The notes under the pieces: generated by a model | Databases searched by the model: none | What the model was told of the DNA's origin: nothing | Seen by the model: the letters and a program-made list of their open reading frames with translations, nothing else | Part shown: one piece after another, positions 1,496 through 45,400 of the stretch | How positions within the stretch are numbered: position 1 is the first letter of the stretch | Layout: every line of letters starts with the position of its first letter | Source of the DNA: Aplysia californica | Lineage: Eukaryota | Reading direction: 5' to 3' | Length of the DNA stretch: 64,000 nt | Assembly (NCBI RefSeq): GCF_000002075.1 | Contig: NW_004797726.1 | Span: 542,335-606,334 of the forward strand | Made by a program: the position numbers and the translations under genes

Positions 1496-3665
1496 ACATA
1501 GCCCCCCTTCTCTGCCTGTCTTGTACATTCATAACATACGAAACGGTCTTCAAGGCCGCGTGCTGACTGATGCATGTCTACTGTCTACCCCGGGTAGATG
1601 TAACCAGCAGAGCCAGCGCCCGCCTGTTGCTGACTCGCCCGGTATCGATTGCCTTTCAAGTGTTGATTGTTTGTTGTTTGTCTCTGACTGGCCAGCCAAT
1701 GCCGAGCTAGAACTGCCGGCTGGTGAAACAACGCCACTGGCCCTGCCCGCGGGTTTCTTAGCAACTACGGACATACGGGTGGAAGCATGGGGGGAGAGGG
1801 TGGGCTGCTAAAGAGAATGAGGTAGGCTGGATGGATGAGATGATGGAAACTGAGAAGGGCTGAGTTGGGTGTGGTCCGTGGCATCAGCTTGTCCCCGAGG
1901 GGTATATTCAAGACTTTTGAAAAGTCGCTGAAAGTGAGAAGAGCGGAGATTATAATCATGTCGTGTCGATCATACCGGGGTAGTAAGTCTGTGTCTTACG
2001 AGTTGTCATGGAGAGTGCTTCGGGGGAAACTCGGGTGGAGAGGGGAATGGTGAGGGTGCGAAAGTTTGCTGCGCGTTTTTTATGTGTACCTGTGGCTATA
2101 CATTAAAAAATTTTANNNNNNNNNNNNNNNNNNNNNNNNNNNNNNNNNNNNNNNNNNNNNNNNNNNNNNNNNNNNNNNNNNNNNNNNNNNNNNNNNNNNN
2201 NNNNNNNNNNNNNNNNNNNNNNNNNNNNNNNNNNNNNNNNNNNNNNNNNNNNNNNNNNNNNNNNNNNNNNNNNNNNNNNNNNNNNNNNNNNNNNNNNNNN
2301 NNNNNNNNNNAATAATATGATTAAGCTTGGGAAGCTAAATAGGGGGAATTGTGTATTTAGCCATTTGGTTCTAACGAGGTTTAATGTTTGAATCATTGTA
2401 TTTGAAGTGAGGGACGTTATTTTAATTCTTGTCCACGAATTTCTCCGCAGTCCTAATGAGTTGGTCTCGATATCGTATCATGTCAGAGCGAAGTGAACAT
2501 ACGAAATGCCTGCCTGGGGAGGGGGGGGGGGGTAAATTAATTTCTCTTAATGGTTGCAGGCATGAAATGTGACTTCGTAAGTGTGTGTACCACGGTTTGA
2601 ACTTTTCTTTTATGGTTTTCTTGCACTGTAATGGAAAGACTAGTACTTATTGGCTGCTCAGGTGTATAGATCTTTCGAGTGTTTCTTTTTATCTAAAGCA
2701 AATCAACTTCTGGCTTGGTCTGGCCTTTTGTGTGCCTACTTGCAGTTAACTGTTTCTGAATACCTGACTTACGTAGCTTATTTAGGATAAAGTTTACTTG
2801 AAATGGATATCCATTTGCCCATCGCCCGCTTGAGAATGTGAGAAGTCTCTGAGAAATCGATTAGAAAAAAATGTGTTAAAAAGCAATCCATCATAGTTTG
2901 TAACTCGCCATTCTTTTATTGACGAACAGCCGAGGTGATGTAGCGTCTAATCAGTTTTGTTGAACCCAGTCAGTGCTTCAAAACGTGCCTGATTTAGGTT
3001 TGGGAAAAATTGAAATGCGCTTTGATAAGTAAAGCTATTATTTGTTAACATTTTTCTGAAGCTGTTCCCAAGGAGATGGGCATGAAGTCTGACTGCTATC
3101 GGGGGTGATAAGACCAGTGGGTAATTTCTGGCCCGGCGATGGTCTCTGCGTGTGGATGTGCCGAGATGAGTTGCCTTAGCAACAGCTGTCAGAAACGATC
3201 TCGAGCCCCTGAGGTGTGTATGTATGGTTTGAAGTGATACGGCTAGGATCAGAAAAAACACACTCTTAACTTACTAAAGTTGCTTAGTTCTTGTGGAGAT
3301 CACGCAATGAGACCGGGCCGTGCCGTTTTACAATACAAGTAATTTGCAAAATGTTCACATTGCCCCAGTACAGATTAGATAGTAATTGACACCAGTGCTG
3401 CTGATGTTGGTCCCTCCCGCTTCTTCGCCACGCCACTGTTCGTTGAGTCATCTCAAATTGTAACGTCGCGTCGCCTCTCACCAACACCAATGCTCTGTGC
3501 GAGAATCACCGTGTCTGCGCCATCATCAGAACTTGACGGACATCTTCATTTTCTTGAGTTGCAATAATTGTCGACATCACTTTTTGCTTACCGACTTCAT
3601 TGTCGGTCATTCTTGTACGACGTACCGGTATTTGAGTGGATGGTCTGGTGGGCCGCGCGAGCGCA

Positions 3666-3779
3666 ATGGAGGTGTCCACGTGGGTGCTCTATGCCTTCTG
3701 CCCGTGCCGCAGGGACAAACATCGGAAACATTATGCGGCCCAAACTCCAAGCACTGGCAATACAGCTGCAGATACCAAA
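3666..3779 (+). CDS. Candidate internal alternative first coding exon MEVSTWVLYAFCPCRRDKHRKHYAAQTPSTGNTAADTK
   Basis: Strong Kozak context GcaATGG, 38 codons, phase-0 donor AAA|gtaatt compatible with the phase-0 exons at 6973 and 4702, CpG-rich upstream sequence, and a W..CPCR motif like the Kalirin Duet N-terminus. Confidence 0.62.
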
Positions 3780-4142
3780 GTAATTACAATCTTATTGTGA
3801 TGTGATTTTGTCTTTTTTTTTTGCTCTTGTTACACTGTATGCTTCTATCTACTATAGTCGCTTTTGAATAAATTTGAAAAGTATCTTCTCAGTGTAGATT
3901 GCAGTCGTCATCTTTCGTGTCTGTTCATTCAACGTCTTTGTTGAAAGTCGTATCTCTCTTTGCTTATCCTGGTTTTGAGCTTGTGGCGACAATAGTGTTA
4001 GTTTGTTTATAGGTTGATTTTAGAGATTTGAAAACTGTTCATGTTAAAAGATGTGGATTTTTATGTCCACAATATGGTGGGGTGAGGGAAGACAGTTTTT
4101 AAAAAAAATGTTAGTGTATGGCTGAAAGAGACACACAGACTG

Positions 4143-4206
<64 letters not shown>

Positions 4207-4701
4207 NNNNNNNNNNNNNNNNNNNNNNNNNNNNNNNNNNNNNNNNNNNNNNNNNNNNNNNNNNNNNNNNNNNNNNNNNNNNNNNNNNNNNNNNNNNNNN
4301 NNNNNNCCCACCATGTGGCTACCATTTTGTTTGCCTGATTGTTTATGACCATGATGGCATATAGATATGTAGCCATGAACTAGTTTCGGATGGAGGTACT
4401 CTGGGTTTATATAGGCCTAATACCAAATTCACTGAATGTTAGGGTATTCTGAAGATGAGAACTTCAGAATGATACAAAAAACAGAAAAGAAAGGCTTGTG
4501 ATTTGTTGTTTTTGATTGTTTAGCTTTGTTCCGAGTTCACCAAAATTAGTTGAGAACAAGTCCCAGACAGGTCTTGGCAAAAAGGTTATTATCTTGCCTC
4601 TGTGTGAAGAAGTCCACAATGCTATGAAATGACAAATAAGCACGCTGTCCCCTACTAGCTGGTGTTGTGAGGGAGCCGTGACCTTTGTGTTGTTCCCCCA
4701 G

Positions 4702-4791
4702 GCCTCCCAGCTGACACTCAAGTCCCAGCCCGAGGCCGCCTCCTCCATGGACCTGGCCAATCAGATCGAGAGTATCGTCAAACAAAGAATT
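4702..4791 (+). CDS. TRIO: Trio exon, pre-DH2 linker [30 protein letters not shown]
   Basis: ccccag| ... |gtgagt, phase 0-0; resembles Trio SAAELVSAIEELVKSKM. Confidence 0.85.
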
Positions 4792-7700
4792 GTGAGTACA
4801 AGATGACCTTTTTGACAGGTCTCTCTCTTCTGTCCTGTTTGGATTTTTTGGACATTGTCTACTTAAGAATTTTCCGTCTGATGTATGATATGAATATTTT
4901 TAAAAGAACAAGTGAAGAATGTGTTTTTGCATTGTCAAATTAAGAATTGTCTATCTCAGTATGATATGAGTATTTTCTAAAAGAGAAGTGGATTTGTTTC
5001 TGCTCTGTCAGGTTTACATTTTTCTATCCTATTGTGATTTGAATATAGTCAGTGTTGGAGGTAATCTTTGAAACAGAAAGGCGTTAAATTAAAAGGGGAC
5101 CAAAAACTCTATTAATTTTGTCTTTCGATATATCCGTACATAGTATTGTGCTAACAGCAACTTACAAAGTAGTCAGATTAACATTAAGTTTAGCTGGTTT
5201 CTGTCATACAAAATCTTTTACAATGTAGGATGGACACTATTTATACTGGTTAACTCATAGCCTGTCGGTGTACAAAGTGTTTCCTTCTTATATTAAGAGA
5301 TCTGTTGTGGACTCAATTTTGAATTTATCTAAAGGTGTTTTTGTTTTTTTCTTGAGTACTACAGACTGAGTGTGACATTTCACATAAGAGTCAGAAACTG
5401 AATAAAACATTTCTCTCTTTGGAGATTGATTTTACAACTTATTTTGCAACTTGACAACTTGCAGTTTATGTTTTTTAATTCATTTCTGATATTCTTATTT
5501 TTTATTATCTTGAGCATATGTGTTGACTATGTATTCTGTTGTGTGTGTAGGAGCCATCAGGAGATGCCAGCTCAACGTCTGCTGCTAAAGCAGACTTGAC
5601 CTCAATGTCTGCGGAAGAAAGTCAGGTCTCTCTGGAGGAACGACAGAGTAACAAAGATGATGGACAGATCGAGAAAGATGAGAAGGACGGAATGAAAGAG
5701 GATGAAGACGATGATGACAAAGGAGAGACTGGAGGAGATAAAGAGTCGGAGAAGGCGAAATATCTGAAGAAAAGACAGTAAGTGTTTTGTATGTCCAGTG
5801 TTGTCAACTCCTGCTTGAAGTTGTCCTTTCGATTTCTGTTCTAGTCAGTCACTAAAGACTAAAGGTGACGTCAATAAAATATTGATGAATTTCTACAGAA
5901 GTCCAATGTATCCGTCAATGATCTCTTTTCAAGGGTCGATCAGTTCGAGAGCAATAAAATCTGAGGGCTAGTCAGTGTCTGGTAATGGACAATGGTCAAT
6001 GTGTATGAGGGCTATAGTTGCGTCTTTGTGCATGTGCACTTGTGTGTATGGCACACTTGTTCGTCTTTGTTATCTTAAGCTTCATTTGCCTGAAATTTTT
6101 TTCTTTGATAATCAGAAACTATATGAGTGGTCTCCCAGCTTGTCTCTGAAGCTTTCTTTCTCCAGATTTTGCATTTTCTTCTCAATTTCCCCATCTCCCC
6201 AATTTTCTTAGAGTTTTGACTGCCGAAACGTTAGCCCACACTGCATCCCATTTTCTTTAATAAGTTGGTCTGTTTTCCTGAAATTATTAGATGTTCCAGG
6301 CCTTTGTAAGATAATGTTTTATCTTCAAGTTTTCTCTAAATTTTTGTTAATCTTTTGATGGGGTTTAGTTTTAGTAATGTAACGCCAAAAAAACCCACAA
6401 AACAAACAGGCCTGAGCATGCCTTTTCTTCTTGTACTGTCAGTAGTTTTTGTGCCTTAATGAATAAATGCCTTCCTTATTTGGAAGATAAGAAATACATT
6501 TTTGGAAAACAGTGGCAATTTTGTAGTTATGCACAACAAAGCGTGAAATGTGGTGTACTATACATTTTTATTTATATGTGTGTGTGTGTGTTGGGGGGGG
6601 GGAGTGAGTGAGTCAGACAGTTTTTTCACTGGCCAGGCTCCAAGATGACATTTTTCGTTTGCATCAAGGTAAGTTGCGACCAGTAACTGTCCTCTCAAGG
6701 TAATGTATTGTCCTCCTGCCTCCATGCCCTGACGGCACTGACGACAGTTTTGACCTTCTTCTAATGTTGCTTTGATTTGTCAGTATTTAAATGACCAGAC
6801 TGTACATATTGACCTGTGACTTCTCTACCTGAAAACCCTCGTAGGACTACCTTTAACGTTCCCTGTCTGGCCTTTGTTTCCCTTCCAATGTCTTCCAGCC
6901 ATTGTATTTGTCTGTTGCTTGAACCTTACAAAAAGCTTTCTTTATCAAATATTTCTTCTCTAATGTCTCCAGGACTCTACGGGTGGAGAGAGCGTTGTCA
7001 CGGGCGACCAGACCATCGCGCCCCAGGTGGCTGTGGTCAACCAGAAGAGCCCTCTGGATGCCACCAGCGAGGAGGAGGAACCGGCCCAGGACATTGAGAT
7101 GCCACCACCCATGGAGATCCAGGAGCACTCCTTCAAGCCAGACAACAAGGAAGTCTCCACTGATGATGTCACTACCAAACTGGTCAGTGACTTTTGAATC
7201 CCAAAATTTTGAATTAGTAAAAACTGCAGTCTTTTATTAGTCTGTGGTATCGGTTGCATGTGCTCAAGAAATAAATTCAAATTTTAAATGCTGAAAAAAG
7301 GAGGGGGGAAAAAACATTTAAAAATTAATTTTTTTTTAAAACGTACACTCTGTACAATTTACAAAAAAGGTTAAAATGCTTTTTTCTCTCGCCTGAAATA
7401 TGTTGCTTTCAGGAGTAGAAAAGTTGGAACAGCTTGCTGACTGTAGTGATTTTTTCCGCTGATTAAGAACTTTGGTATGGTCAATGCAATTAACTGTTAC
7501 CATGAGTATCCCTGCATACTCNNNNNNNNNNNNNNNNNNNNNNNNNNNNNNNNNNNNNNNNNNNNNNNNNNNNNNNNNNNNNNNNNNNNNNNNNNNNNNN
7601 NNNNNNNNNNNNNNNNNNNNNTATATATATATACAGTCAAACCTGCCCTGACGGCCACATCTATAAGACGGCCATCTGTACAAATGGCCACTTTCCATTT

Positions 7701-8702
7701 CCCCCCTTGCGTTTTTTCTATAAAATTTAACTGTAAAACGGTCACCTGTCCAACGCGGCCACGGCCACCATATTTTAACCCCTATCACACCAAGCAATAA
7801 CACCTGTCTTAGACGGGCACCTTAGTGACTCCATTACGCTTTTTCATAATTTGTGCATTGACCCTTGGCGTTGTGGGCGAGCCTTCATAATCCAGTCCCC
7901 TGTCATTGTTGTTAAGTAGTCCCTCATGTTGTGTAGGCCCCTCCCACTGCTGACCAATAGGTAACAAATTTTCAGCTGCTGGTGAGGTAAGCGTGTGATA
8001 GAACTCATACACAAGTCGTAAGTGAGATGAGTGGTCACTGTTTACCCAGTCTGTTACAAAGTAACAATGGACGTCAACATGAATTTGTGACAGAAGCATC
8101 GCTCATTCTCCGAGTGGTGGCGACTCGTGTATTTGTTTTAACGTGGCACTAGGTCCTCTTTGTCTGACACATTTTGTTTTATTGTCACCCTTGCGCAAAA
8201 TCAGCAATAAAAGAAAAATAACAAACAAAATACAAACCAACAAGAACAAAAAACAACAACGCGGCTCCTTTCGATTGGGACCTCAAATTGAATGGTTTGT
8301 TTTCTTCATCATGATCAGTCCTGCCTAAGACGGCCACCTATCTTATACGGCCACTTTTCTCCTTGACAATGGGTGGCCGTCTTACTCAGGTTTGACTGTA
8401 TATTTGTTTGTTTTAACCATTGGATTGTATGGTATGTTGTCTTGATATGAATGAAGGCTTTAATGGGAGCATGATAATTTTCTTTGTTTAAAGGATGTTA
8501 GGGTTGGATTTCGCAATCAAATTAACCTACTGTCACTCTCCCAGGGCTACATGGCAGTGATGCGAGACAACCCCCTGCCAGAAGACATGGTTGGCAAGGA
8601 CAAAATTGTGTTTGGAAACATTCACCAGATTTATGACTGGCACAATGAGTAAGTTTCAGTTACCCCTCTGCTTCATGCTATGTTTCTGCACACACACACT
8701 CA

Positions 8703-8771
<69 letters not shown>

Positions 8772-11385
8772 ACTCATGCGCATGCATGTATACACATAAT
8801 ACAAATATAACCTTGTATACACATACACCATTTTTTGTTTGCACATGTCTATTTAATGCAAATGAATGTGCCACAACGTGGTGGAATCGAGCGCTCTTTA
8901 ATTTTTGGACATATGGAGTTATTGGTAGTTCCTGAAAGCTAATTTATTTGTCTTGTTTTCATTGAAATAATATTCGTTTATCTTGGATAGAACTCAGGAT
9001 ATTTGTGATTGAAAGAAGTGAGATCGCCTGGTTTCAGTGGTGAAATTAGCGAGAAAATGGCCACCAAAGTTTAGTAACTCCAATAGCTTAAAGATTCTTT
9101 GAACACTGAAATATTTTGTGCCTTTAATCAATGTTTTTCCGTAAAATTCACCTGGAAATGTGTTTTTATATGGACACAAAAGATGTTAAGCCAAAAAATA
9201 AAAATTCGATCAAAATGTCCAAACTGGGGGGGGAAATGCCTGTTTCTCCGATTTTGTTATTTTGATGAGCACCCGATTTCACCCTGTTGCCTCACAAATA
9301 ATTCTTGGTCTAACTGTGTGTGTTTTCAGAACAATGCTCTCAGAGCTAGAGAAATGCCTTGCAAACCCTGGCAGAGTTGGCTCTATTTTCATCCGTTATG
9401 TGAGTACTACGCTCTTATCATAATGACTTTTTAAAAATAGTATTTATTGTTTATTTATGTCGTGGGATTAATTATCTGTCATTTTCAGTAGAAGTTTTAT
9501 CTTTTAGATTACCTGTCTTTGTCAGTGGAAGCTTTATCCTGCTGATTACCTGTCTTTATTTATGGAAGTTCGGATCCGTCGAACTTTTGGATTTTCCGGG
9601 TGGTAAACATTATATATGGACATAGGAAGATGGTGGTCCTTCGTGGAGTGAAGTTCTTTTGTAGATGTAACTTCACCATCATATGACGAAGACGTGTAGT
9701 CGATAACCGTGGGGAAGTTTTTATAGTATCTCAGTCTTTTCTTGGGACTTTGTGTCTCTTTCACCTAAGTTGGCCCTGACAGGCATGGTCTACACTGCCC
9801 ACCTCCTAGATTATCTAAATAGTGTTGATTGGGGTGTAAAACCACCTACAATTATAATTTTCTCATGTAATTTCACTAATCTCTGGATGGAACTGGATTG
9901 TACAGAAACTTGGATTGAGTTGTATGCGAATGTTGATTTTATTGTAGAGAATTGTGGGGACAATTCTTGATTTAGAAATGTAAAGAAAACCATAAGACCA
10001 AGATGCACTGATTACACATTCATTACTGCTTAGGTAATTGCCTGACTACTATTAATTTTTGACACAATGCCTCTTACGCGAGACTTCAGGAGACTTTTAA
10101 AGATATAAGGTTATAAACTTGGAGGATAGCAATTAGAGGATAGGGAAGAGACAAAGAGTAAATGTTTGAACCGTCAGCTTATGTCAGTGAACTTGTCTTT
10201 AATTGCTTGTAATATTTGTTCCTATTGGTACCTGGACTTTCCCTGACACTGTGTTTTCTTTCATCTCAACAGGAGCGGAGATTGTACATGTATGTAAAAT
10301 ACTGCGAAAATAAACCCAAGTCTGAATTTGTCGTCTCAGAATACCTTGACACCTATTTTGAGGTGAGTTGTTTATTGGTCTATTGAGGTCAAGAAGACCT
10401 GACAAATTGAATAATTATAGTGTTGATTCTTTGTGTTGTGTTTTGCTGTCTGTTTTAAGGAGTCCTTTATTGGTTTTGACATGGGTGGTTGGCATCTGCT
10501 CTGGGATGGTTTGCTCCCACTTCTATTCTTTGGCACTTATACGACCTTATTGTATTGCTAGTTCCGTAAAACTCTTACTAAAACTGAAACATCAGTTTTT
10601 ATCATCTTTTCTCTTTCTGGGTATTTTTTTTCATATTACTCAAAGGTTACACAATTGATGTAAGGCTCTTTTTGTCATATTTGTGTCCCAAGTGCCATAA
10701 AACTCTAATTAAAAGTAAATTTAGTTTTTACAGTCTCTACTCTAATGTATGCCTAATGTATTATTCTGTTCTGTTACTCTGACAACTGCCAATAAAAGGG
10801 CTCTGGACACATACAAAATGAGGAGAGTTAATTTTTCTTCTGTGTAACATTTTAGCTTCTATTCAGTCATGTGTCAATTTGTAATGTGTTGGCATAACGT
10901 AAAAGTTCTCTTTGTTTTCAGGAGGTACGCCAGAAACTGGGTCATCGACTTATGCTGCCAGACCTGTTGATCAAACCAGTGCAAAGGATAATGCGCTATC
11001 AATTGTTGCTCAAAGTAAGTCTGCATAAATATTTTTGAAATCTCACTTTTATATTTGGGATCATTCTTGTGTGGATGTGACCTGGGCTCATTGCTTGAGG
11101 GTTTTCTGTGATGGTTGCCTCCACACCGATAGAATAAGTTCTTTTTCCAACTCTGTCTGTAAAGTTCAAATATTATCTCTTACTTTATTACATTTTGGTG
11201 AATATTTTGAGGGTGATTTTGATATGTTTCTTTTGATAGGTGCATTTACTAGCAAATTGGCATGACTTTGCAACTGTAGTGAAGTCTTCTGAGCTTTTTG
11301 GATAGGCATGCAAAGCCACAAAACTTCACAATTACTCCGTCTCAACATTTTCGATAATGCAGAGAGACTCCTGCCTCTCATGCAT

Positions 11386-12882: not shown

Positions 12883-15800
12883 TATGAGAGTGAGTAAGTG
12901 AGGGGGGGTGCACACACATATATATATATATCAAATGTATGTGAGGCAGCGTGGTGAAATTAGGCGCTCGTCAAAATAATGAAAGCCAAGAAATTGGAAT
13001 TTTCCCGCAGGCTAGGGAATTTTTGTTGAATTTTTGTTTTTTTGGTTCAATAACTTTCTTGCCCATTAAAGAGCGCATTTTCATTGAAAACATTGATTAA
13101 AGGCGGAAGAAATGTAAATTTTCAGTTCCCACGGACTCTCAAGCTAAAGAAATAACTCAAATTTGGCAGCCATTTTCTCGATAATTTTACCTCTGAAACC
13201 AGATGACCCTCACCTCCTTCAGTCGCACATATCTCGACTTCTATTCAACATGGATGGATATTAATATTATATTCACCCAAAACAAGGAAAATGGACAGGC
13301 CTTAAGATGGTACCATCAACTCTGTATTCCCAAAAATTGACGAGAGCCTGATTCCACCGCGTCGTGCCCCTTATTGAAATGGCATTATATTTTATATGGT
13401 CGTTAGACCTTGTTAGGTTGCAAGATCACTTGAAAGCTCCTGTTATCACTGCTCCCGTAGAAAGATGACATTATGTGTCTAAAAATATGATAGATGTGTT
13501 GATGATGTAAACTAAAACTAAAACATGCTTTTGTTTACTGCAGGTGAACAAAATGTCTCTGAATGACCGTGTGGAAGGGGAGCCGCTGCGCTTTCAGCTG
13601 ACTGACCGAACTCCTGGCTCAGACGTGAGGATGATTGTCCAGGCCAACTCAGAGGAGAACAAAGACACGTGGATCAAGCAGATTAGATCTATACTGGATA
13701 TGCAAGGAGATTTCCTGAGGGGTGAGTCTACCTACAGCTGTTTCTGGCCTTTCTCATTGTCGAGTTATTGAGTGTTCTTTTACTCTGTTTTGCGGAAACG
13801 TGCATTACCCGACTCTGGAAGAACTTTAAAATTGTGTTTTGGTCGTTGATTTTGAACTTTTCATGTGTTGTCTCACTTTATGCTCGACTCAGCGGATCAA
13901 TTAAATGGAAAGAAATGGAAAAAAGAAAACGTAGTTGTGAATGACAATGATCCACACTATGTAAGGTATTTTGTAACCATTTGGTTGAGAGACTTTGTTC
14001 GAAAATGTAGTCTGTCTATAGCATCATTGAGCACATATTAGGTTGATAGTATGAAATGGAAAGAGGACTGATAATTGGGTGATAATTCAAGTATTAGGTG
14101 CTGCCATTCTTTGAGGGTGATATGAGGTAGTTCACCAGCTTCTGTTTCCTTCTCGCAGAGGGTTTTACTCTTAGTTTGCACATGCTACAATTTGGTGCTA
14201 AATAATCTTAAGTGGGACCTACATTGTGTTTTGCTTTTTATCAGTAGGAAAAGAATGATGGTATCTCGTTCTCCATATGTTTACTCTACAACTTTTTACA
14301 GCTAGATAATATTTACTGTTGTGTTTTTTTGGTTAATAAAGAAGGCTATTTTAAATATGATTTCCAAGTGTTACTATGCTTTTCTTTCTTTCGTAATCTA
14401 ACTTTGCAGACAGTCAGACTGCTTTTAAGGATGCAGTTTTTGTTTAAAAAATCGTGCAATGAGAATAGACACCTCCTTAGTTGCAAAGAATTATATCTTT
14501 ATTTATGGCCTACATAATATGATCTATGTTCATCTCTTTAATTAACTTTGCAGTATCACAGCAGAGTTTTGAGATGAAAATGGACCTTAAATTTTTCTGT
14601 ATATAAGAAAGCTTACCAAAGTATACTTGAGATTTTTAAAAATCTCGAAGAACAGTGAGTTGGCTGAAGATATGATTGCATATGTTGATAATCTTTACCC
14701 CACATGTATCGTCTCTTTTCTATTGTATTTTCTTTTGTTTTCTCCAGCTCTCCAATCTCCAATAGCTTATCAGAAGGAGCTCACAAAGGAATTGTAAGTT
14801 TTATGCGTGCAGTGTGTTTGCTTTGTCTTGTTCACTTCTTGACTTCTTTCTTCTAGAATGCTACAATTTTTGTCATATCGTAGTTTTGTGGTTTGCTACT
14901 TTTTTTGTTTTGGCTCATGGGGTGTTTTTAAGGGTTGAGACAAGCTGTCAAGTCTTTTTCTCCCTCCTTTTGATTTTGTTCTTTCATTTCTGTTTTGAAT
15001 TGTGTTTGATTCTTAAAGCTTTCTCCTTTATGAGTATTCCTGTTCTGCATCTTACTATGGCATGTTTGTGCGCAGATGCTGGATACAGTTATTGTTTTTC
15101 AGTATTTTCCTTCCTTTTCTGTTTCATTCTCACTGACGGCAGGTGGTTGATGAAGGCTCTAAAGTTTTCTGGTCCTTAATCTTCTCAGTGGTACTTTTAT
15201 CATAATCCATACTTGATGAAGTCTTCCTCTAACAGTGCTGTCTGGCTATATCTCAAGTAATCCTCATCTTGTACTCCTTTTTCTTGTGAAGAATCGTGTG
15301 GCCTATTTATATTTCAAGGAGCATGTATCTCTCTCTGACTGACCAGATATTTAGAGGCATTATTTTCTTCCTGCTTTTCCAGTGATATTAATGTCCTTAT
15401 CAGCAGTGTGCTTTCTTTCACTCTTCAATCAATCCTGTGCTGGGATGTATGTTCAGATCTGTTCAGGTGGTAGATACAGAAAAAAGAGTTACTCTCATTT
15501 CGTCAAGCAGTATAATTCTCTTCAATGTGTAGTTTGGTATCCTGTTGAATCAAAGCTTCTCTCTATGATCTCTGCTATGCAAGGACTAAATCTTTGACTG
15601 TGGATAGCCTTTTCCCATTGCATAGTCTATATAGATCTCTTCCCACTGTATTTTTTTTTAAATCCAAGAATCCTCCCTTCCCCTCCCATCCCCCCATCCC
15701 CCCATCCCCCTTCCCGTCCCCTCGTGGGTGGTTGGTGGGTGTTCTGGTGTGGTTTGCTCCTTCTTTCCTATCAAACAACTATCGTCCTTATCTCTCCTCC

Positions 15801-21400: not shown

Positions 21401-24400
21401 AGTCACTGTCTGTTCTCTTTGAACCAGCTTGACTTTGTCTTTGTCTTTTCCCAGTATTAGAAGAATGTATTGAGTTATCCCTGTGTCTTTGAATTACAAA
21501 CTCTATTTAGCACGGCGCCATTTTTTACCATTGTTTCTTTCATCCCTGCGTGTGTACGTTGTGCATGCCTGCGTGTGTGTATCTGGCAATATCCAGTTGT
21601 CTGTGTATGGATCTGCTAAGATCCAGTTGTCTTTTACCTTTTACTGTGTGCGGGGTGTGCCTGTGTGCGTGTGTCTGACTACATCCAATCGTCTTTGCCT
21701 TGTCTGACAGATCGACGCCGGACTTCAGCAACAGCTCTGGTCCATCGGACTCGTCGCTGAGAAAAACTCAGTCTCATCCACTGAACCGCGCTCACAACCT
21801 GAGCCCGTCCAAATCTGTTGCCACCAAAACAAAATCGGACACAGTCTTTGGAGCAGCGTCCAAAAGTAAAAGTGATCGCTGCAAATCGGTGCCGGGCCCG
21901 CTCAATTCAGAGTCTTCTGGCGAAGGCCAGGATGGGGGTGGGCCGGGGGACATGTCGGCGTCCTCATCTGTAGGAAAAGCCTCATGTCCCAACTCACCGC
22001 TCGAGGCCAGCAAAGATTTTGTGCGGAACACGGCCAGTGACGCGGGATGGCGGAAAGGCTCCTCCGCTGCCGCCCCTGTCTCCGTGGAGGCCGCGGCCGG
22101 CTCTAGCTCGCCCAAACCTCGGAAGACCATCTTTGACGGGTTCCGCAACACTCTGGGCCGCAAGTCAAAGTCAAGTGACGCCGGCAAAATGGCAGATGGC
22201 ACCTCGCCCCAGTCACCCAGCACCTCCACCGGCGGGCTAGACCCATCAGCCATAAATCTCACAGACGGAGGCAATTCGGAAGGAAGGACGGCCACTCCAG
22301 AATCTTCAGACGAGGCCACTACTGCAGCAGCGTCTGCAACCGCAGCGGCAGCAGCAGCTACAGCAGCATCTTCTCTTCCTCCTTCCTCCACGACACGGGT
22401 AAGTGGACGCAATGTGACCTCGTGATGGAAAGAGGAGGTAACTTTGAATGCAAAAAAGTATATATCTATCCATCTATTTGTGTGTGCGTGTGTGTGTGTG
22501 CGTGTGTGTGTACATATATCAGTTGCCGCCCTCTCGCCTCACAGGAGTTCCTGGCTCGTTCGTTTGTTCATACCTTAGTTTGCTGCATTCGTTAGTGCAC
22601 CATCCTCTGATGGTAGACATGGTTGGTTGGTTCGGCTGCTCGTCCGACTCCCCGTATGCCCCTGTCCTAGTTTCATACCTTGCAATCTTCACTGAGTTCA
22701 TACGTTGCCCCGGAGCACTCACCCTCCCTCCTGGTCAAGTGACGGCCACGCCCCCTACCCGTGAGTGATCAGCTGTCACTTGAGTCAGAGACAAGTGGGA
22801 TACACCAGGGAACACATAAGTCGTTTTTCATTCTGTTTTGTTCTCTACATTTCACCGTTGCAATCTACGACGTATAGATGAGTAGTTTTCAAACAAACAT
22901 ATTGGAAAACTAGTTGAGATGACAAGACTTTGATTTGTGAAAGCAGTTTTGTGTAGTGGATGGATGCAGGCATAAATTCTTGAGAGGACTTCATTTCGAG
23001 TGTTCATCTCTAGGATATTAATTGAGTAATGAAAGTGGACCGATATCCAGCGAGTGAGATTTTCAAATTAATATATTATGTTCATTCTACAATTTTATGT
23101 TTCATGAGTTCCAGAGAATATCATAGTGTCATATCTTAGTGTTATTACAATTTATTATTCTTTTAATAACATTCTCTTCTACTCTATGTTCATCCTGATT
23201 GAGACGGGGGTATTAACGAACATTTCACGATCACGAACAATGACTATGTAAACCACTCAGCTCTGTTTCTTTCGTTTGTTTGTTATGATTAATTCCCCCT
23301 TTTTGTTATGACTGTGAGAACTACTGCTTGCCTATGTACGACTTATGTCCGTTCGCATGCATTACTTTTTTGGAATATACGTGCATTTTGCTAAATTAGT
23401 TGTCTCCTCTCGGTTCAGTGTTTTCAGCGCTGAGCGGATCTCTTCCTTTTTCCTGTCAGTATTTTCATAAGTTGAATTGGAACTTGATAAAAGAGTGTGC
23501 TTGTAATGGGAGTTGTAATAACGTATTTGTCATTTCTGAAGATCAAGTGTTATTTCACATGTTAGTGGGGAGCGTATGCAGATTGATTTCCTGCTGATTT
23601 CCGGACAGAGCTGAGAGCAACCTCACAGCTCAGTTCATTTGATATTTCATGAGAAAATGCCTGGTTACATTGCATGCCAGTGGCAGGACTCGTGGCTACG
23701 ATGACTCCACGGAGACTGTACCTGGCTTTGTGAAAGAACAATGTGGCCACATGAGAGAAGGATTGTAGTGTATGGCCATGTGTGAGAAGTGTGTGTGTGG
23801 CGATGTGTGAATAGTGTATGGTTATGTGTGAGAAGTGCGTGTATGGTGATGTGTGAATAGTGTATGGCTATGTGTGAGAAGTGTGTGTGTGGCGATGTGT
23901 GAATAGTGTATGGTTATGTGTGAGAAGTGTGTGTGTGGCGATGTGTGAATAGTGTATGGCTATGTGTGAGAAATGTGTGTATGGTTGTGTGAGGGTACAG
24001 TTAAAGTGGTGGGGCTAAGTTCCAAATAGTTTGGTGTTTGCGTGGCCACATGAGAGTAGAGGAACAGTTGTGTGTGGTTACATGGAAGTAGCTATGAATA
24101 TGTGGCGATATGAGAGTATTGTGGCATTTCTGTGGCTACATGAGAGTAGAGGAATAGTTATGTGCGGCTGCATGAAAGTAGAAGGACAATTGTGTGACTT
24201 CTTGAAAGAGTTGTGGCATTTCTGTTGCTCCATATGGGAGTAGTGAACAGTTGTGTGGCAATTTGAGAGAGTGGTGACTGTATTACATCGAAAGAGTTCG
24301 GTGCCAATACATGTTTGAGACTTAACATTGTGGGTTATCTGTCTAATTGTATTGTGGCTGAGCATAATTTATGGAACATTAGGCACCCCAATGTCAAACA

Positions 24401-33072: not shown

Positions 33073-36000
33073 TAAATCTTAGAGTGAAAGCGATTGAGAG
33101 TGAGAAAGAGAAAGAATAAGAAAGAGAGAGAGATTTATCACGGTTGATTTGACATAATGTATGCTTGCTGTTCGTCTTGCTGCCATTAACTTTTGGCATT
33201 TGCTTGCTTTCCATCCATTTCCAAAAACAAAGTTTTAACAACTTGCTTTAAGTAACAAGATGAAAAAAGATAGCGTCCAGTTCTGGGAAAATTGTCTAGA
33301 CCTATAATAGAATACCGCTCCGACGAGTCGCTTGCAGAGCTTTGTCATCCTGCTGATAATCTCAGTTGTCACCACCCATCTAAACCTCCACCCATCTGTA
33401 GTGTGGTAAAAAATTCGTGGTGCCACTTATCCTTAAATATCTTTGTAATGGTTTAGTCATTGTCACCCATACTTTGCACAGCAGTTTCAGACAATTTGTC
33501 TTAACTTAATCATATTTCTCCACAACAATTGAGGCTAAATTTTAAAATCACAAAACTTGTTATAAGAAATTAACTTTATAGCGAACACTTTTTTGCTCAA
33601 AAAGTTCACAAAACATACATTCAATAAAGATAATCTCGCGATTAGAAAAAAATGACAGACTTGCTTTTAAAAGCAATATTGTCCCAGCTGTTCCTTTTAA
33701 ACTCAGTATAAACCAACCACTGGGATATCTTGGCAGTAGGCCTATCTATTAAGTAATTTTCTAGAATAGAGCTTGCAGGTGTTTACAAAAATATTGATCT
33801 GAAAAGACAAATTGATACAAGTCACTGTGCAAAAGCTGAAGAGTTATTATTTTATAGTGTAGGAGATATTTGACAATAAGTTGTGCCACGAATTTTTGAC
33901 TGCACAATAAGTAACTTCAGCCAACTTCACACGTGCTCACGTCCATACTACTACTACTCACACTTAGTAACACCCTGATGCATGCTCACTCAGTCATACA
34001 AAAAATTCTGTCGGTGCAAGCATGCATGCACTGGTCCTGGTACACACGTTCTCATTCTGCAGCCTAACATTCAAGATACATAGTGTGATGATACCGAGCA
34101 TAAATGTTTATGAAAATGTAGTTTTGATAATTATACTAAGGTTGGGGATGCTTTGATGATGATGATGATAATGATGATGATGAGGGTGATGAGGATGACA
34201 ATGATGATGAAGGTCCTGTTGGTGTTGTTAGGGTGATGGAGTTAAAGAAAAAGAAAGGAGACCTTTGGTGGTCTTCGGTCTGACTCTTGGAAGTAATAGA
34301 AATGACTGGGCAAACATAACCATGCAGCGATAGCATATAGCATGTCCTGTGATGCTGACATCATGTGACCAATTGTTTTGGATGCTGATGGAACTTTGAA
34401 AGCTGAGGGGTTCTCCCGATGACTGCATGTACTACACATTGGAGGTTGACAGGGCATTAAGCAAGCCAGGCGGTTTGTATTTGCAGTGTTGTCTTCTTCA
34501 GAGAACAAGGGACAAAGTATTTTTGGTAAGACTCAACGAGATCTATGTCTTCAATTTCATTGTTTGTAAGCTTTTGTCAGACAAAAGAACCATATACTGG
34601 CTTCTGTGGTTTAGTTGTTAGGCTGTTTGTGGTTGCGCAAAGAAGACTCAAGCCTGAAATAGCATGCCTCCCTAGTGATCTAAATTGTGTCTATGGAGGC
34701 GTAAAACACTTACAAATATTTACAATTACTAGAGAACAGTACTGTGCTCTTGGTGTTTATGGTGAGAAAGTCTGGATCCAATCAATGTCGTACAGAATTA
34801 TACCCTTTCCAGTTGTAAACAGCTGATGAACGAACATATTATGACCAATGTGACTGACTCAGCCTCAAAACCATTTCTAATCTGTATTGTTTTGCAACTT
34901 TCACTTTATTTGGACCCCACCAATAGTGGATAACATTTAAAGAAGCTTTCTCCTCTCTGAGTTATTGACAATCGTTTCACTGATTTTAAACACTAGCATC
35001 TGTGGTGTAGTGGTTGGGCTCTTTGCCATCACACACAGAAGATGTGAGTTCAGTTCCCAAGTGGGAAAGATTTTCATGGAGTACATTGGTCTGTCCTCTG
35101 GGATGTTGTGTCTCACTCAGGCCAGGTTGACCCTACTCAGAGTCAAAGACGGCCTCCTTATAATTGATCTAAATTTTGTGGATTGAAGTGTAAAACATTC
35201 ATAATTTTTAGAAAAGAGTTCTCTCTGCTGTCCTTATCTTCTGATTATCATTCATGTCATTTTCCCCCCACCCTGTCTCCCCCCTCCCCTCCGACGGGCA
35301 GCCGATAGTGGAGACCCCTCTGACAAGCGCCCGCATCCTGTTTGACTACCAAGCTATCAAGGAGGATGAGGTGACCGTCAACAAAGGGGAACTGGTGCAG
35401 ATCCTCAACATGAACCACCAGAACATGTACCTGGTCCACAGACCGGCCAATCACAACTCTCCCGCAGCCGAGGGATGGGTGCCCAGTCACATCATTGGAC
35501 CCAGAGATGGAGAGGGCAGTCTCAAGTATGTGCTCTTGATAAGTTTATTTTTTTTTACTTGTGGAAACCTGATTTTTAAAAAAATAATTTTTCTCGCTCC
35601 TCCTGTTGCTTCTGTCATCTGTTAGTCTTGCTTTGTGGTGTCGTTTGCTCCTTCCTTCCTATACACATCTTTTGTCCTTACGTCTCCTCCTTTTCTTTGT
35701 ATGTTACTCTCTATAGCAAGTGAAACATTTTTAGCACAACTTATCATTAAATATCTCTTTAACAGGTGAATCAATGTCGCCCATAATTTGCACCACAGTT
35801 TGTATCAATTTGTCTTAACTTAATCATATTTTTCCACAACAATTAAGAATAAGTTAAGAAACTTTTCTTCTTAAATTTAAAACAATGCTGCTAGACTGAT
35901 AACAAGATCTAAAAAACGAGACCATGTCACTCCATTATTAAAAGAACTGAATTGGCTCCCTGTAAAAGAAAGAATAATATTTAGAATCTGCGTCATGTGT

Positions 36001-36328
36001 TTCAAATGTGTAAATAAAACTGCTCCTTTTTATCTACAAGAACTTATTAGTATTTATAAGCCAGGGAGAAACCTAGGATCATCAAACGATAACACCCTAC
36101 TTGTGACACCTGTAAAATCATACAAATCATATGGAGAGAGATCTTTCTCATATCTTGGTCCATTTATGTGGAACAGATTACCCATGAAACTAAGACAAAT
36201 AAAAACACTTGATAGCTTCAAAAGACACCTTACACATTTTCTGTTCCTACAGGCCTATCATTCATAAGCTTTTAACATTATTTTTCATTATAGTTGTTCT
36301 GTTCCTATGTCTGGATGAAAATAGTCTG

Positions 36329-42400: not shown

Positions 42401-45400
42401 TGAATTGCCTTATGTCCCTCACTACCAACTTAGTTTTTGTCATTGTCATAACAAAATGATTGTGATAAAATATCGTGCAAAAATGACATAGGTTATGATT
42501 GATGTGCTTTAATCTTTGTATGTACTATTACATGTAACTTAAAATAATTGTATTGAGGCAAGCTAGTTTATACTGATGTCAGGACTAATGTGTTGTGACA
42601 TACATTTTTGTTGTGTGTGCTTAAGGCTTTATTATTTGATGTGACTACTGTGTTATGATTAGTTTGTAGAGACATTTGGTTTATGACACATGTGTTATTT
42701 AGTAACCTGTGTCGAGAAATCTGTTGACCAAGATGTGATTTTTATCTGTCTGTCTACAGAGCTCAGTGAGAGAGAGGACGCCCCATGTGTCATGTGGAAG
42801 TCCACTTTTGAGAACGACTTCACTGACCTTGGCGAGATAGGGAAGTAAGTGTCAGCAGTCACACCATCGTGATAAATACTTCTCAAGATTGTGGTCTTGA
42901 CCCAGAGTAATATTGTGTAGGATTGCACAAGACGAAGGGGTTTAGTGTGTTAAGTGGTTGATTCAATAATTCCAGTACTTTCTGCCTTTCCAGTAAAAAT
43001 CAGAATTAGCCCATTTTTGTTAAAGTCAGGGCACTCTCTTAATTTGCAACAGTACCTGTAAAATATCCCTATGAAATTAATCAAGAGGAAAAACCAACTG
43101 TAATCCCCAAAGAATAAGCTAAGTTCATCATGAAAAAGTGAAATATAGGGTGGGTCTTGGTAGGGTCAATGTTACTTAGCTTGTTTTTCCCTTGACCCCT
43201 TCATATATTTGAAGCACCAATTTTTACCCTTGTTTTGTTTCACTTTGACGTTGGATTCTTTTTGTAAGTGTTTTGATTACCAAATGAGTTTGAACCAGTA
43301 TCGTGTCCATCTTATGCAAAAATGAAAACTGAAATAAATATTCAGTTTCTATTTCACTTCAAGTTTTTAAAGAATTTGTGAGCTAAAATTATATTTGCAT
43401 ACCAGAAAATCATATTGTGCAACGAATTGTTTCAAAGGGTTTAATAAAAAGGGTCATAGTTTTTGGATAAATAGTATTATTCAGACACAAAAATCACCAG
43501 GATGGAGAAGCTGAAATTGATTTTTTGATGGTCGTTTTTTCTGAACCCTGAAGGCAGTATGATTCTGATGCTTAAGAGGGAGTTGTTATCGGAACATGTT
43601 TGGTAGAAAAGGTCGTATTCACAAGTATTTGTTTAGAAAAGGTCGTATTCACAAGTATTTGTTTAGAAAAGGTCGTATTCACAAGTATTTGTTTAGAAAA
43701 GGTCGTATTCACAAGTATTTGTTTAGAAAAGGTCGTATTCACAAGTATTTGTTTAGAAAAGGTCGTATTCACAAGTATTTGTTTAGAAAAGGTCGTATTC
43801 ACAAGTATTTGTTTAGAAAAGGTCGTATTCACAAGTATTTGTTTAGAAAAGGTCGTATTCACAAGTATTTGTTTAGAAAAGGTCGTATTCACAAGTATTT
43901 GTTTAGAAAAGGTCGTATTCACAAGTACAGTCGAACCTGTGTAAGACTGCCACTCATTGTCAAGGGGAAAAGTGGCCGTATAAGACAGGTGGCCGTCTTA
44001 GGCAGGACTGATCAAGATGAAGAAAACAAACCATTTCTTTCTGAGGTCCCAACCGAAGATAGCCGCTTTGTTGTTGTTGTTATTGTTTTCGTTGTTTTTT
44101 GTTCTTTTTTTTTTTTTGTTGCTGCTTTTGTGCAAGGGTGACAATAAAACGAAATATGTCAGACAGGGAGGACCGAGTGCTATGGTAAAACAAACACACG
44201 GGTTGCCACCACTCGCAGAACGAGCGACGCTTCTGTCTCAAGTTCATGTTGACGTCCATTGTTACTTTGTTACAGACTGGGTAAACAGTGACCGCTCATC
44301 TCACTTACGATTTGTGTATGAGTTCTGAGCGGGGCTTACTTAAAGGTTATGAGAGATCGCACGCTGACCCCAATGGCAGCTGAAAATTTGTTACCTATTG
44401 GTCAACAGTGGGAGGGGCCTACGCAACATGATCGGTTGGAGGGACTACCTAACAACAACGACAGGTGATTGAATTATGACGGCTCGCCAACAACGCCAGG
44501 GGCCACTGCACAATTTATGACAAAATGTATTGGAGTCACAAAGGTGGCCGTCTAAGACAGGTGTTATTGCTTTGTGTGATAGGGGTTGTGTGTTAAAATA
44601 TGGTGGCCGTGGCCGAGTTGGACAGGTGCCCGTTTTACACAGTTAAATTGTATAGAAAAAATGCAAGGGGGGGAAATGGAAAGTGGCCGTTTGTACAGGT
44701 GGTCGTCTTATAGAGGTGGCCATCAGGGCAGGTTCGACTGTATTTGTTTTATAGTGTGTGTTTTTTTTTGTGTTGAAAGCTTACATTTGGGGGCTAATTA
44801 GATGATTCATGTAAAAAAACAAATTATAAAGTGTGTTTGTATTGAAAACAAATGACTAAAAACGGCAGCCATTTTGTTTTTCTTTTTGAACGAGTTATTT
44901 TTTTGGGTCAAAAGTTTTTTCTTATTTTTAATCAAATAAATTTGAAATATTGCAGGTAGACACTACAAGATATGATAAAACTTTACACCAAAGATTTTTC
45001 TGATTGAATAATTATTTTGATTTTGATTTATTGATAAGATATTTCAAAATCTACATTTTGACTGCCTAGTGGAAGATTCTGCTATACGGGTACGCCATTT
45101 TGAAAAGTGAAGAATGACTGAGTCCTTCACTGAGCAGTCAATTTGCCCATAGAATTGAGGTTGTTTTTTTTATTGCACTTGCCCTTAAGTTTTTGCCTTT
45201 TCCCATTTCCCTAGGGGCAGGTTCTCCATCGTCCATCGATGTGTCCAGAAGTGCTCGGGCCAGGAGCTGGCGGTCAAGCTGATCACCAAGCGACTGACCA
45301 GGAAGGAGGCTGCGGAGATTGAGTTCAACACGGTGCAGAGTCTGCAGCAGACCAACCTAGTCAAAGTGTTTGATCTGTACGAGAGCCCAGCCCATTACCT

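What the first reader, a model, noticed from the sequence alone, without database searches (positions are those of the whole stretch)
3400..3785. Internal first exon with a Duet/p63RhoGEF-like cysteine motif, missed by the ORF track
Seen: ATG at 3666 in an optimal context (G at -3, G at +4), peptide MEVSTWVLYAFCPCRRDKHRKH..., phase-0 donor AAA|gtaatt at 3780, a CpG-rich leader and an AP-1 site TGAGTCA at 3444-3450. An out-of-frame upstream ATG at 3640 could tune translation. Established (recalled): the Kalirin Duet isoform starts from an internal promoter with ...WLFAKCCCCFPCRD..., and p63RhoGEF is palmitoylated on N-terminal cysteines. Inference: the internal-promoter, palmitoylated GEF2 isoform predates vertebrates or arose convergently. 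The hydrophobic-Cys-basic layout is typical of S-acylation sites.
Basis: partly seen in the sequence, partly recalled or inferred. Interest (0 to 1): 0.7.

Follow-up and report, generated by a model that had tools for sequence, protein, structure and literature searches.

The report
Cysteine-tipped short Trio isoform in gastropods
A small exon inside a gastropod's Trio/Kalirin gene is spliced in RNA onto the RhoA-activating half of the gene, and its cysteine pair, kept in two other sea slugs, likely takes fatty-acid anchors that would hold this short protein at the cell membrane, a trick known from vertebrate p63RhoGEF but likely evolved separately here.

Summary
The exon is real. RNA contigs from two studies splice 3779 to 6973 (GT..AG) in frame with the GEF2 half of a Trio/Kalirin gene, and its M-x3-TW-x-LY-x2-CPCR start recurs in Elysia and Plakobranchus models at the same junction. 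Corrections: transcription does not appear to start at 3350-3600. One run splices a short non-coding leader from 6.5 kb upstream onto an acceptor at 3374; another runs unspliced from about 2590. The AP-1 match lies inside the transcript at chance frequency. The peptide shows no similarity to p63RhoGEF N-termini beyond shuffles, and it joins two exons (about 76 kb) downstream of where Duet and p63RhoGEF join, so separate origin is likelier than homology. The same intron holds two more alternative start exons: a polybasic-CSC exon conserved to Nucella, and a spliced MG-start exon. GEF2-only isoforms from internal promoters are already known in worm, fly and mammals. S-acylation and the start site are inferred, not shown. 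The assembly order of three exons here contradicts the RNA. Verdict: new variant of a known kind, moderate interest.

The parts
2590..3373 (+). Upstream extension of the exon in run X4 (long 5' leader, or retained end of the 5'UTR intron)
   Evidence: One unspliced 1210-nt contig 2590-3779 plus 20 nt of exon A; no X4 depth at 3868-4040
3372..3373 (+). AG acceptor used in run X5, joined from a short non-coding leader exon 6.5 kb upstream (G000:C456:~539163-539197, GT donor)
3374..3779 (+). Alternative 5' coding exon X (292-nt leader part plus 114-nt coding part)
   Evidence: X5 contig 3374-3779; joint 3779->6973 in X4 and X5
3444..3450 (+). AP-1-like heptamer, inside the transcribed leader, chance frequency; not counted as functional
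3640..3642 (+). Out-of-frame upstream ATG (weaker context) opening a 120-codon ORF that overlaps the main start and ends just inside exon B; two more short uORFs start at 3404 and 3490
3666..3779 (+). 38-codon unique N-terminus
   Evidence: conserved in P0002 (34 of 38), P0007 and P0012 (10 of first 15 each)
3699..3707 (+). C12-P13-C14, predicted S-acylation site
   Evidence: Invariant in 4 of 4 aligned sequences; the only Cys before the DH domain in P0007 and P0012. Acylation itself is inferred.
3780..3785 (+). Phase-0 splice donor GTAATT
   Evidence: same position in P0002 read-through
6973..7182 (+). Shared exon A (PPPM linker exon): common acceptor for exon X, the KWL exon of long Trio, and the MG-start exon
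4702..4791 (+). Shared exon B; follows exon A in RNA although it precedes it in the assembly
   Evidence: Backward joint in all 5 RNA or RNA-guess runs laid
5551..5777 (+). Shared exon C; followed in RNA by a ~67-nt exon D not found in the readable genome
8545..13721 (+). Exons of the second DH-PH (GEF2) module
   Evidence: tblastn with mollusc Trio/Kalirin proteins; homologue P0007 hits TrioC 6D8Z at E 3e-119 and p63RhoGEF 2RGN at E 8e-111
14748..14793 (+). Exon with the ALQSPIAYQ extension after PH2, matching the extension in the Galpha-q/p63RhoGEF structure chain

Best explanation
Exon 3374-3779 is spliced in frame onto the GEF2 half of a gastropod Trio/Kalirin gene, and transcripts that likely start at an internal promoter would make a short RhoA exchange factor whose conserved C12/C14 pair is likely S-palmitoylated and would hold it at the plasma membrane; this anchor likely arose separately from that of p63RhoGEF. 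Shown: splicing 3779->6973, open frame through exons A-B-C, two 5' forms, conservation in other heterobranch gastropods, a join position different from p63RhoGEF and Duet, and a conserved post-PH extension. Inferred: a promoter near the leader exon (-3.2 kb) and/or near 2590; leaky scanning past the weaker ATG at 3640; membrane approach by the hydrophobic TWVLYAF and basic RRDKHRKH flanks; acylation by a DHHC enzyme; activation by Galpha-q and output to RhoA as in p63RhoGEF, TrioC and UNC-73E. The exon is one of at least three alternative starts in the same intron, which would let tissues choose among membrane addresses for one catalytic module.
For: Joint 3779->6973 GT..AG in X5 (contig depth 16.2, 30 nt on the short side) and X4 (77.6, 20 nt), two studies. 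X+A+B+C is 213 codons with no stop. Elysia marginata P0007 and Plakobranchus P0012 models begin MDATTWILYALCPCR and MDASTWILYVLCPCR and join exon A; none of 2000 shuffles reached either score. The rest of the exon is unalignable in these two while both Cys stay. Stops in all three frames 5' of the ATG rule out in-frame use by long Trio. p63RhoGEF needs C23/25/26 for membrane binding and its first 29 residues suffice (PMC3722567 passages). Separate origin: p 0.62-0.86 against three ARHGEF25 starts; 19 of 19 Cys-start ARHGEF25 entries keep the KWL segment after the Cys cluster, and the gastropod forms skip it; the canonical DUET TSS lies between the SH3 exon 34 and exon 35 (PMC11630257 supplement), while exon X lies two exons and about 76 kb beyond the SH3 exon.
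Against: No biochemical or proteomic evidence of translation or acylation. No capped 5' ends; Logan contigs cannot show starts, and X4 and X5 are only guessed to be RNA. The junction is seen with 20-30 nt on the short side, below the tool's 31-nt bridging bar. The X4 form carries 19 upstream ATGs and the overlapping 120-codon uORF should lower output. Conservation is shown only within heterobranch gastropods (3 other records); the Elysia and Plakobranchus entries are gene models. A cytosolic ARHGEF25 isoform activates RhoA about as well as the palmitoylated one after receptor stimulation (PMC5105084), so an anchor may matter little for output. Short peptides lose alignment signal quickly, so lack of similarity does not prove separate origin.
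Confidence: 0.62

Rival explanations
1. Same isoform, but the cysteines are not lipid acceptors: they bind metal with the following histidines, form a redox or dimer switch, or the hydrophobic-basic stretch binds membranes or a partner without acylation.
For: H residues follow the CPC in all four aligned sequences; the segment before the Cys is hydrophobic but weakly amphipathic (moment 0.26-0.28 against 0.49-0.59 for p63RhoGEF), so the layout differs from p63RhoGEF.
Against: His spacing is not conserved (one invariant His column); a Cys pair near an N-terminus between hydrophobic and basic residues is a common S-acylation context (established knowledge, recalled); Cys-rich starts recur on GEF2 short forms in several lineages.
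Confidence: 0.16
2. Deep homology: the exon descends from a bilaterian Cys-bearing first exon shared with Duet and p63RhoGEF, and was moved or duplicated into the next introns in gastropods.
For: Chelicerate short forms start with Cys clusters and join before the KWL segment, as p63RhoGEF does (P0053, P0076, P0118), which hints at an old promoter there; all these exons end so that the shared frame is kept.
Against: No similarity of exon X to vertebrate or chelicerate starts (p 0.14-0.86); different intron; no candidate in the readable part of the equivalent 1.8-kb intron of this genome (731 nt read N); three vertebrate Trio short forms and three nematode short forms lack a Cys cluster. If any gastropod exon is old, it is more likely the polybasic-CSC exon.
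Confidence: 0.12
3. The exon works mainly as a regulatory or poison element: a 406-nt internal exon with stops that, joined through the short leader to long Trio transcripts, sends them to nonsense-mediated decay, with little protein made from 3666.
For: It has a working acceptor at 3374; the leader exon is preceded by an AG one base before the contig start, so it may itself be internal; many upstream ATGs.
Against: Peptide and both Cys are conserved in sacoglossans from the same Met; X4 shows an unspliced 5' end; no contig joins the KWL exon to the leader or to 3374 among the rows shown (21 loose-end rows not shown).
Confidence: 0.07

Closest known systems
Kalirin Duet / Trio-Duet (mammalian internal-promoter GEF2 isoforms)
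   Same: Internal start, unique N-terminus, lacks Sec14/spectrin/GEF1; several alternative DUET starts exist in human KALRN (PMC11630257 passages and supplement; PMC3541206; PMC12148328).
   Different: Canonical Duet starts in the intron right after the SH3 exon; exon X joins two exons later and omits the KWL segment.
p63RhoGEF580 (ARHGEF25)
   Same: GEF2-type DH-PH with the ALQSPI.YQ extension, short N-terminus with Cys cluster and basic residues; alternative first exons give anchored and cytosolic forms (PMC5105084).
   Different: Separate vertebrate gene rather than an isoform; basic amphipathic helix before CxCC, whereas exon X has a hydrophobic stretch before CPC and the basic patch after; no sequence similarity; different join point.
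Drosophila trio M (GEF2-only)
   Same: GEF2-only transcript with a non-coding first exon and a multi-kb 5'UTR intron whose retention is regulated (PMC11321036 passages), like the spliced (X5) and unspliced (X4) 5' forms here.
   Different: No lipid anchor mentioned in the passages read; fly N-terminus not retrieved; the fly gene is said to lack the C-terminal Ig/Fn-kinase part (passage cut off; otherwise recalled), which this gene has.
C. elegans UNC-73 RhoGEF-2 isoforms (e.g. UNC-73E)
   Same: Short GEF2 isoforms acting downstream of Galpha-q in neurons and muscle (bioRxiv 2021.05.08.443256 and PMC3541206 passages).
   Different: Three nematode short forms retrieved have no N-terminal Cys cluster; the primary paper (PMC1199572) was not held.

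Membership tests
Trio/Kalirin gene | Spectrin repeats, GEF1, SH3, GEF2, SH3, Ig, FN3, kinase in order | tested here: met
   tblastn of mollusc Trio/Kalirin proteins over window plus 200 kb upstream
Duet-like GEF2-only isoform | Unique 5' exon spliced in frame to the exons before GEF2 | tested here: met
Duet-like GEF2-only isoform | Transcription starts at an internal promoter (capped 5' ends) | tested here: inconclusive
   Contig ends at 2590 (X4) and in a short leader (X5); contigs cannot show starts
Duet-like GEF2-only isoform | Galpha-q-binding extension after PH2 | tested here: met
   Sequence motif present; binding itself not tested
Duet / p63RhoGEF first exon (homology) | Lies in the intron after the SH3-1 exon, upstream of the KWL segment | tested here: not met
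Duet / p63RhoGEF first exon (homology) | Sequence similarity to the [KQ]CxCC N-terminus | tested here: not met
   p 0.62-0.86 against three ARHGEF25 N-termini; Duet itself not available
S-acylated N-terminal anchor | Conserved Cys near the N-terminus with hydrophobic and basic flanks | tested here: met
S-acylated N-terminal anchor | Thioester-linked palmitate and Cys-dependent membrane localisation | not testable with these tools
   needs acyl-RAC and mutant imaging

The most novel reading that the evidence does not exclude
The gastropod Trio gene carries a bank of alternative start exons in one intron, each coding a different lipid anchor (hydrophobic-CPC-basic, polybasic-CSC, and an MG start), and vertebrates, chelicerates, other lophotrochozoans and gastropods each built such anchors for the Galpha-q-to-RhoA module on their own. 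Membrane tethering of GEF2, thought of as a feature of vertebrate p63RhoGEF, would then be a repeatedly evolved design set by promoter choice.
Probability: 0.3. Interest if true: 0.6.

Novelty: new variant of a known kind. Interest (0 to 1): 0.4.

Why it matters
Galpha-q to Trio-GEF2 to RhoA signalling drives neurotransmission and muscle activity in worms and is studied in vertebrates through p63RhoGEF, whose palmitoylated N-terminus is described as vertebrate-limited (PMC5105084). A conserved Cys anchor on an invertebrate Trio isoform, with sister exons offering other anchors, gives a simple test of whether pre-positioning GEF2 at the membrane is a general, convergent solution. It also corrects a locus where assembly order and a missing exon would keep automated models from building this isoform.

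Tried and rejected
Raw-read runs X21, X22, X23 show no reads on exon X. Rejected as evidence of tissue specificity: depth already falls within exon A and reads end in poly-A inside exon C, which looks like 3'-primed libraries that do not reach the exon. No listed holder was on record as RNA. AP-1 site rejected as chance. Metagenome scan with alignment A1 gave 2 loci from 9 pattern matches, both unrelated membrane-protein ORFs matching only residues 1-11 and lacking the CPC. Peptide searches found only P0002 (1 of 2 candidates; 1 hit) and missed P0007/P0012, so these blanks say little about distant relatives. Pfam has no family for the peptide. Genomic order of exons A-B-C could not be tested: probable-DNA run X1 had no contigs over 4214-6289; its depth on exon A (47.9) against exon X (38.5) does not suggest a duplicated A. 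Scan for a Cys exon in the p63-equivalent intron found none in the readable part. Earlier-findings look-ups were empty. Literature searches for palmitoylation of Duet or of invertebrate Trio isoforms, or for mollusc Trio isoforms, listed nothing on point (listings only); two primary papers were not held, and subscription journals are mostly not searched. No fold was attempted: a 38-residue peptide with four relatives would not give a usable model.

Full report
Observation. The ORF is below the 70-aa cut of my ORF list. CpG o/e over 3374-3779 is 1.03 against a median of 0.46; 2.2% of 592 windows reach it, 6.3% of 1001 over a wider 139 kb. The AP-1 heptamer occurs 6 times, no more than shuffles give.

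The gene. The window is G000:C456:542335-606334. tblastn with mollusc Trio/Kalirin proteins places spectrin repeats, GEF1 and the first SH3 164-73 kb upstream, and GEF2, SH3, Ig, FN3 and kinase exons in the window. The closest named hits to a GEF2 exon are heterobranch gastropods (Candidula 95%, Elysia 91%; 92 of 104 candidates passed).

RNA evidence. Six runs were laid, of 24 listed. In contig runs X5 and X4 (two studies, RNA by guess) 3779 joins 6973 with GT..AG ends; the short side is 30 and 20 nt. The long form's KWL exon joins the same acceptor (contig depth 27.1 against 16.2 for exon X in X5; 511.8 against 77.6 in X4; depth is a poor measure of level). Exons X, A, B, C read 213 codons without a stop. 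In X5 the contig starts with 35 other letters, 25 of which were searched and map once in the genome, to a segment ending at a GT donor 6.5 kb upstream, and it enters at an AG at 3372-3373. In X4 the contig is unspliced from 2590, with no depth in the intron just after the donor. So exon X is a second exon in one run and a long first exon or partly retained intron in the other; fly trio M has a comparable regulated 5'UTR intron (PMC11321036, passages). Starts are not shown, since contigs cannot show them. Three raw-read runs have no reads on the exon, which I do not count (see Tried and rejected). The ATG at 3640 opens a 120-codon overlapping frame that ends just inside exon B (the coordinate my script printed ignored the end of exon A).

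Local assembly. All five RNA or RNA-guess runs join exon A (6973-7182) back to exon B (4702), then C, then about 67 nt that are not found in the readable genome; these may lie under N or in a gap. Models from Elysia, Plakobranchus, Candidula, Batillaria and Nucella read A-B-C-D in order. A misjoin near the simple repeat at 6561-6626 is the likely cause; untested.

Conservation. P0002, an unnamed genomic record, has 34 of 38 residues and reads into the intron at the same place, but its leader is similar too, so it is a weak test. Elysia marginata P0007 and Plakobranchus P0012 are stronger: 10 of the first 15 residues identical, invariant M, T, W, L, Y, C, P, C, R, basic and His residues after, an unalignable remainder, and a direct join to exon A. 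The two Cys are the only ones in 232-238 residues before the DH domain. No copy was seen outside heterobranchs, but the searches were insensitive.

Sister exons. N-termini of Elysia chlorotica P0008 and Nucella P0013 led to a second exon at G000:C456:493667-493864, RRKKRHKLSIAKLCSC with a phase-0 donor (tblastn E 5e-18 and 4e-14); its splicing was not seen in the rows shown. A third, MGDVHSSHSREHTPARSSE at about 519860-519916, is joined to exon A in X4 and resembles the start of bivalve model P0028 (by eye only). Asp at position 3 is unfavourable for myristoylation (recalled), so that reading is a lead. Unnamed lophotrochozoan-like records start with a polybasic FFKFFSC segment that scores p 0.0025 and 0.018 against the second exon, uncorrected for 16 comparisons.

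Homology or convergence. Of 93 new entries (best 120 of 1566 listed), 19 start with [KQ]CxCC; the 19 Cys-start ARHGEF25 entries I listed all keep the KWL segment after it. Of 7 chelicerate short forms examined, 4 have CC within 20 residues and all 7 join before that segment. The canonical human DUET start lies between the SH3 exon 34 and exon 35 (PMC11630257 supplement rows; PMC3541206 passage). Exon X lies two exons and about 76 kb past the SH3 exon and skips KWL. Its peptide does not beat shuffles against three ARHGEF25 starts (p 0.62-0.86) or three chelicerate starts (p 0.14-0.41). Three vertebrate Trio short forms and three nematode short forms have no Cys cluster. So it works like p63RhoGEF's N-terminus by inference but is not filed as its homologue.

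Mechanism. Shown: splice, frame, conservation, and the post-PH extension [12 protein letters not shown] that aligns with p63RhoGEF chain 2RGN_B through the Elysia homologue. From papers (passages only): p63RhoGEF's Cys 23/25/26 are needed and its first 29 residues suffice for plasma-membrane binding (PMC3722567); a cytosolic isoform is recruited by Galpha-q and activates RhoA similarly (PMC5105084); UNC-73E acts with Galpha-q in neurons and muscle (bioRxiv 2021.05.08.443256); PMC5499878 added nothing on N-termini. Inferred: internal promoter, leaky scanning to 3666, S-acylation of C12/C14, membrane pre-positioning, Galpha-q-driven RhoA activation. My odds: exon real and in frame 0.97; translated short isoform 0.9; acylated anchor 0.7; separate origin 0.75; confidence in the whole explanation is set at 0.62, a little above the plain product because the origin step does not change how it works.

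Novelty. GEF2-only internal isoforms are known in worm, fly and mammals, and relatives' automated models already contain this N-terminus. Searches listed no paper on a Cys anchor in an invertebrate Trio isoform or on Duet palmitoylation; two primary papers were not held and most subscription journals are not covered. New variant of a known kind; interest 0.4.

Noticed in passing
window 4702-7182: Exon order in the assembly (B, C, A) contradicts RNA (A, B, C) and the next ~67-nt exon is not in the readable genome; likely a misjoin. The Biomphalaria model P0014 also has B before A, which is unexplained.
   Followed up: partly
L006 / G000:C456:493667-493864: Second alternative start exon with a polybasic-AKLCSC motif and phase-0 donor, conserved in Elysia chlorotica and Nucella models; the better candidate for an old lophotrochozoan anchor.
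   Followed up: partly
L023:1471-1527: Third alternative start exon (MGDVHS..., strong ATG context), joined to exon A in run X4; similar MGD start in bivalve model P0028.
   Followed up: partly
L022:1464-1481: Short inverted repeat (CAGAGAG..CTCTCTG) just upstream of where the leader contig begins, followed by an AG; could be promoter-proximal or mark the leader as an internal mini-exon.
   Followed up: no
window 6627-6971: Run X4 has a contig (depth 23.5) over the intron directly before exon A: possibly a fourth 5' form or retained intron.
   Followed up: no
P0053, P0076, P0118, P0067, P0038, P0146, P0152, P0194: Chelicerate GEF2 short forms start with Cys clusters (one with MG plus CC) or with an MGNK start, suggesting lipid anchors there too.
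   Followed up: partly
window 7631-8400 and 43926-44743; 8867-9308: High-copy, widely transcribed repeat elements in introns (84% identical inverted pair; very high contig depth).
   Followed up: no
window 35881-36267, minus strand: 128-aa stop-free frame that reads like the C-terminal part of a LINE-type reverse transcriptase (recalled resemblance, no search).
   Followed up: no
window 43570-43950: 33-nt tandem repeat open in several frames, intronic.
   Followed up: no
window 21679-22425: Large Ser/Ala-rich exon after PH2, matched by Plakobranchus and cuttlefish proteins; may end or be spliced onward, giving Duet9-like versus Duet12-like forms.
   Followed up: no
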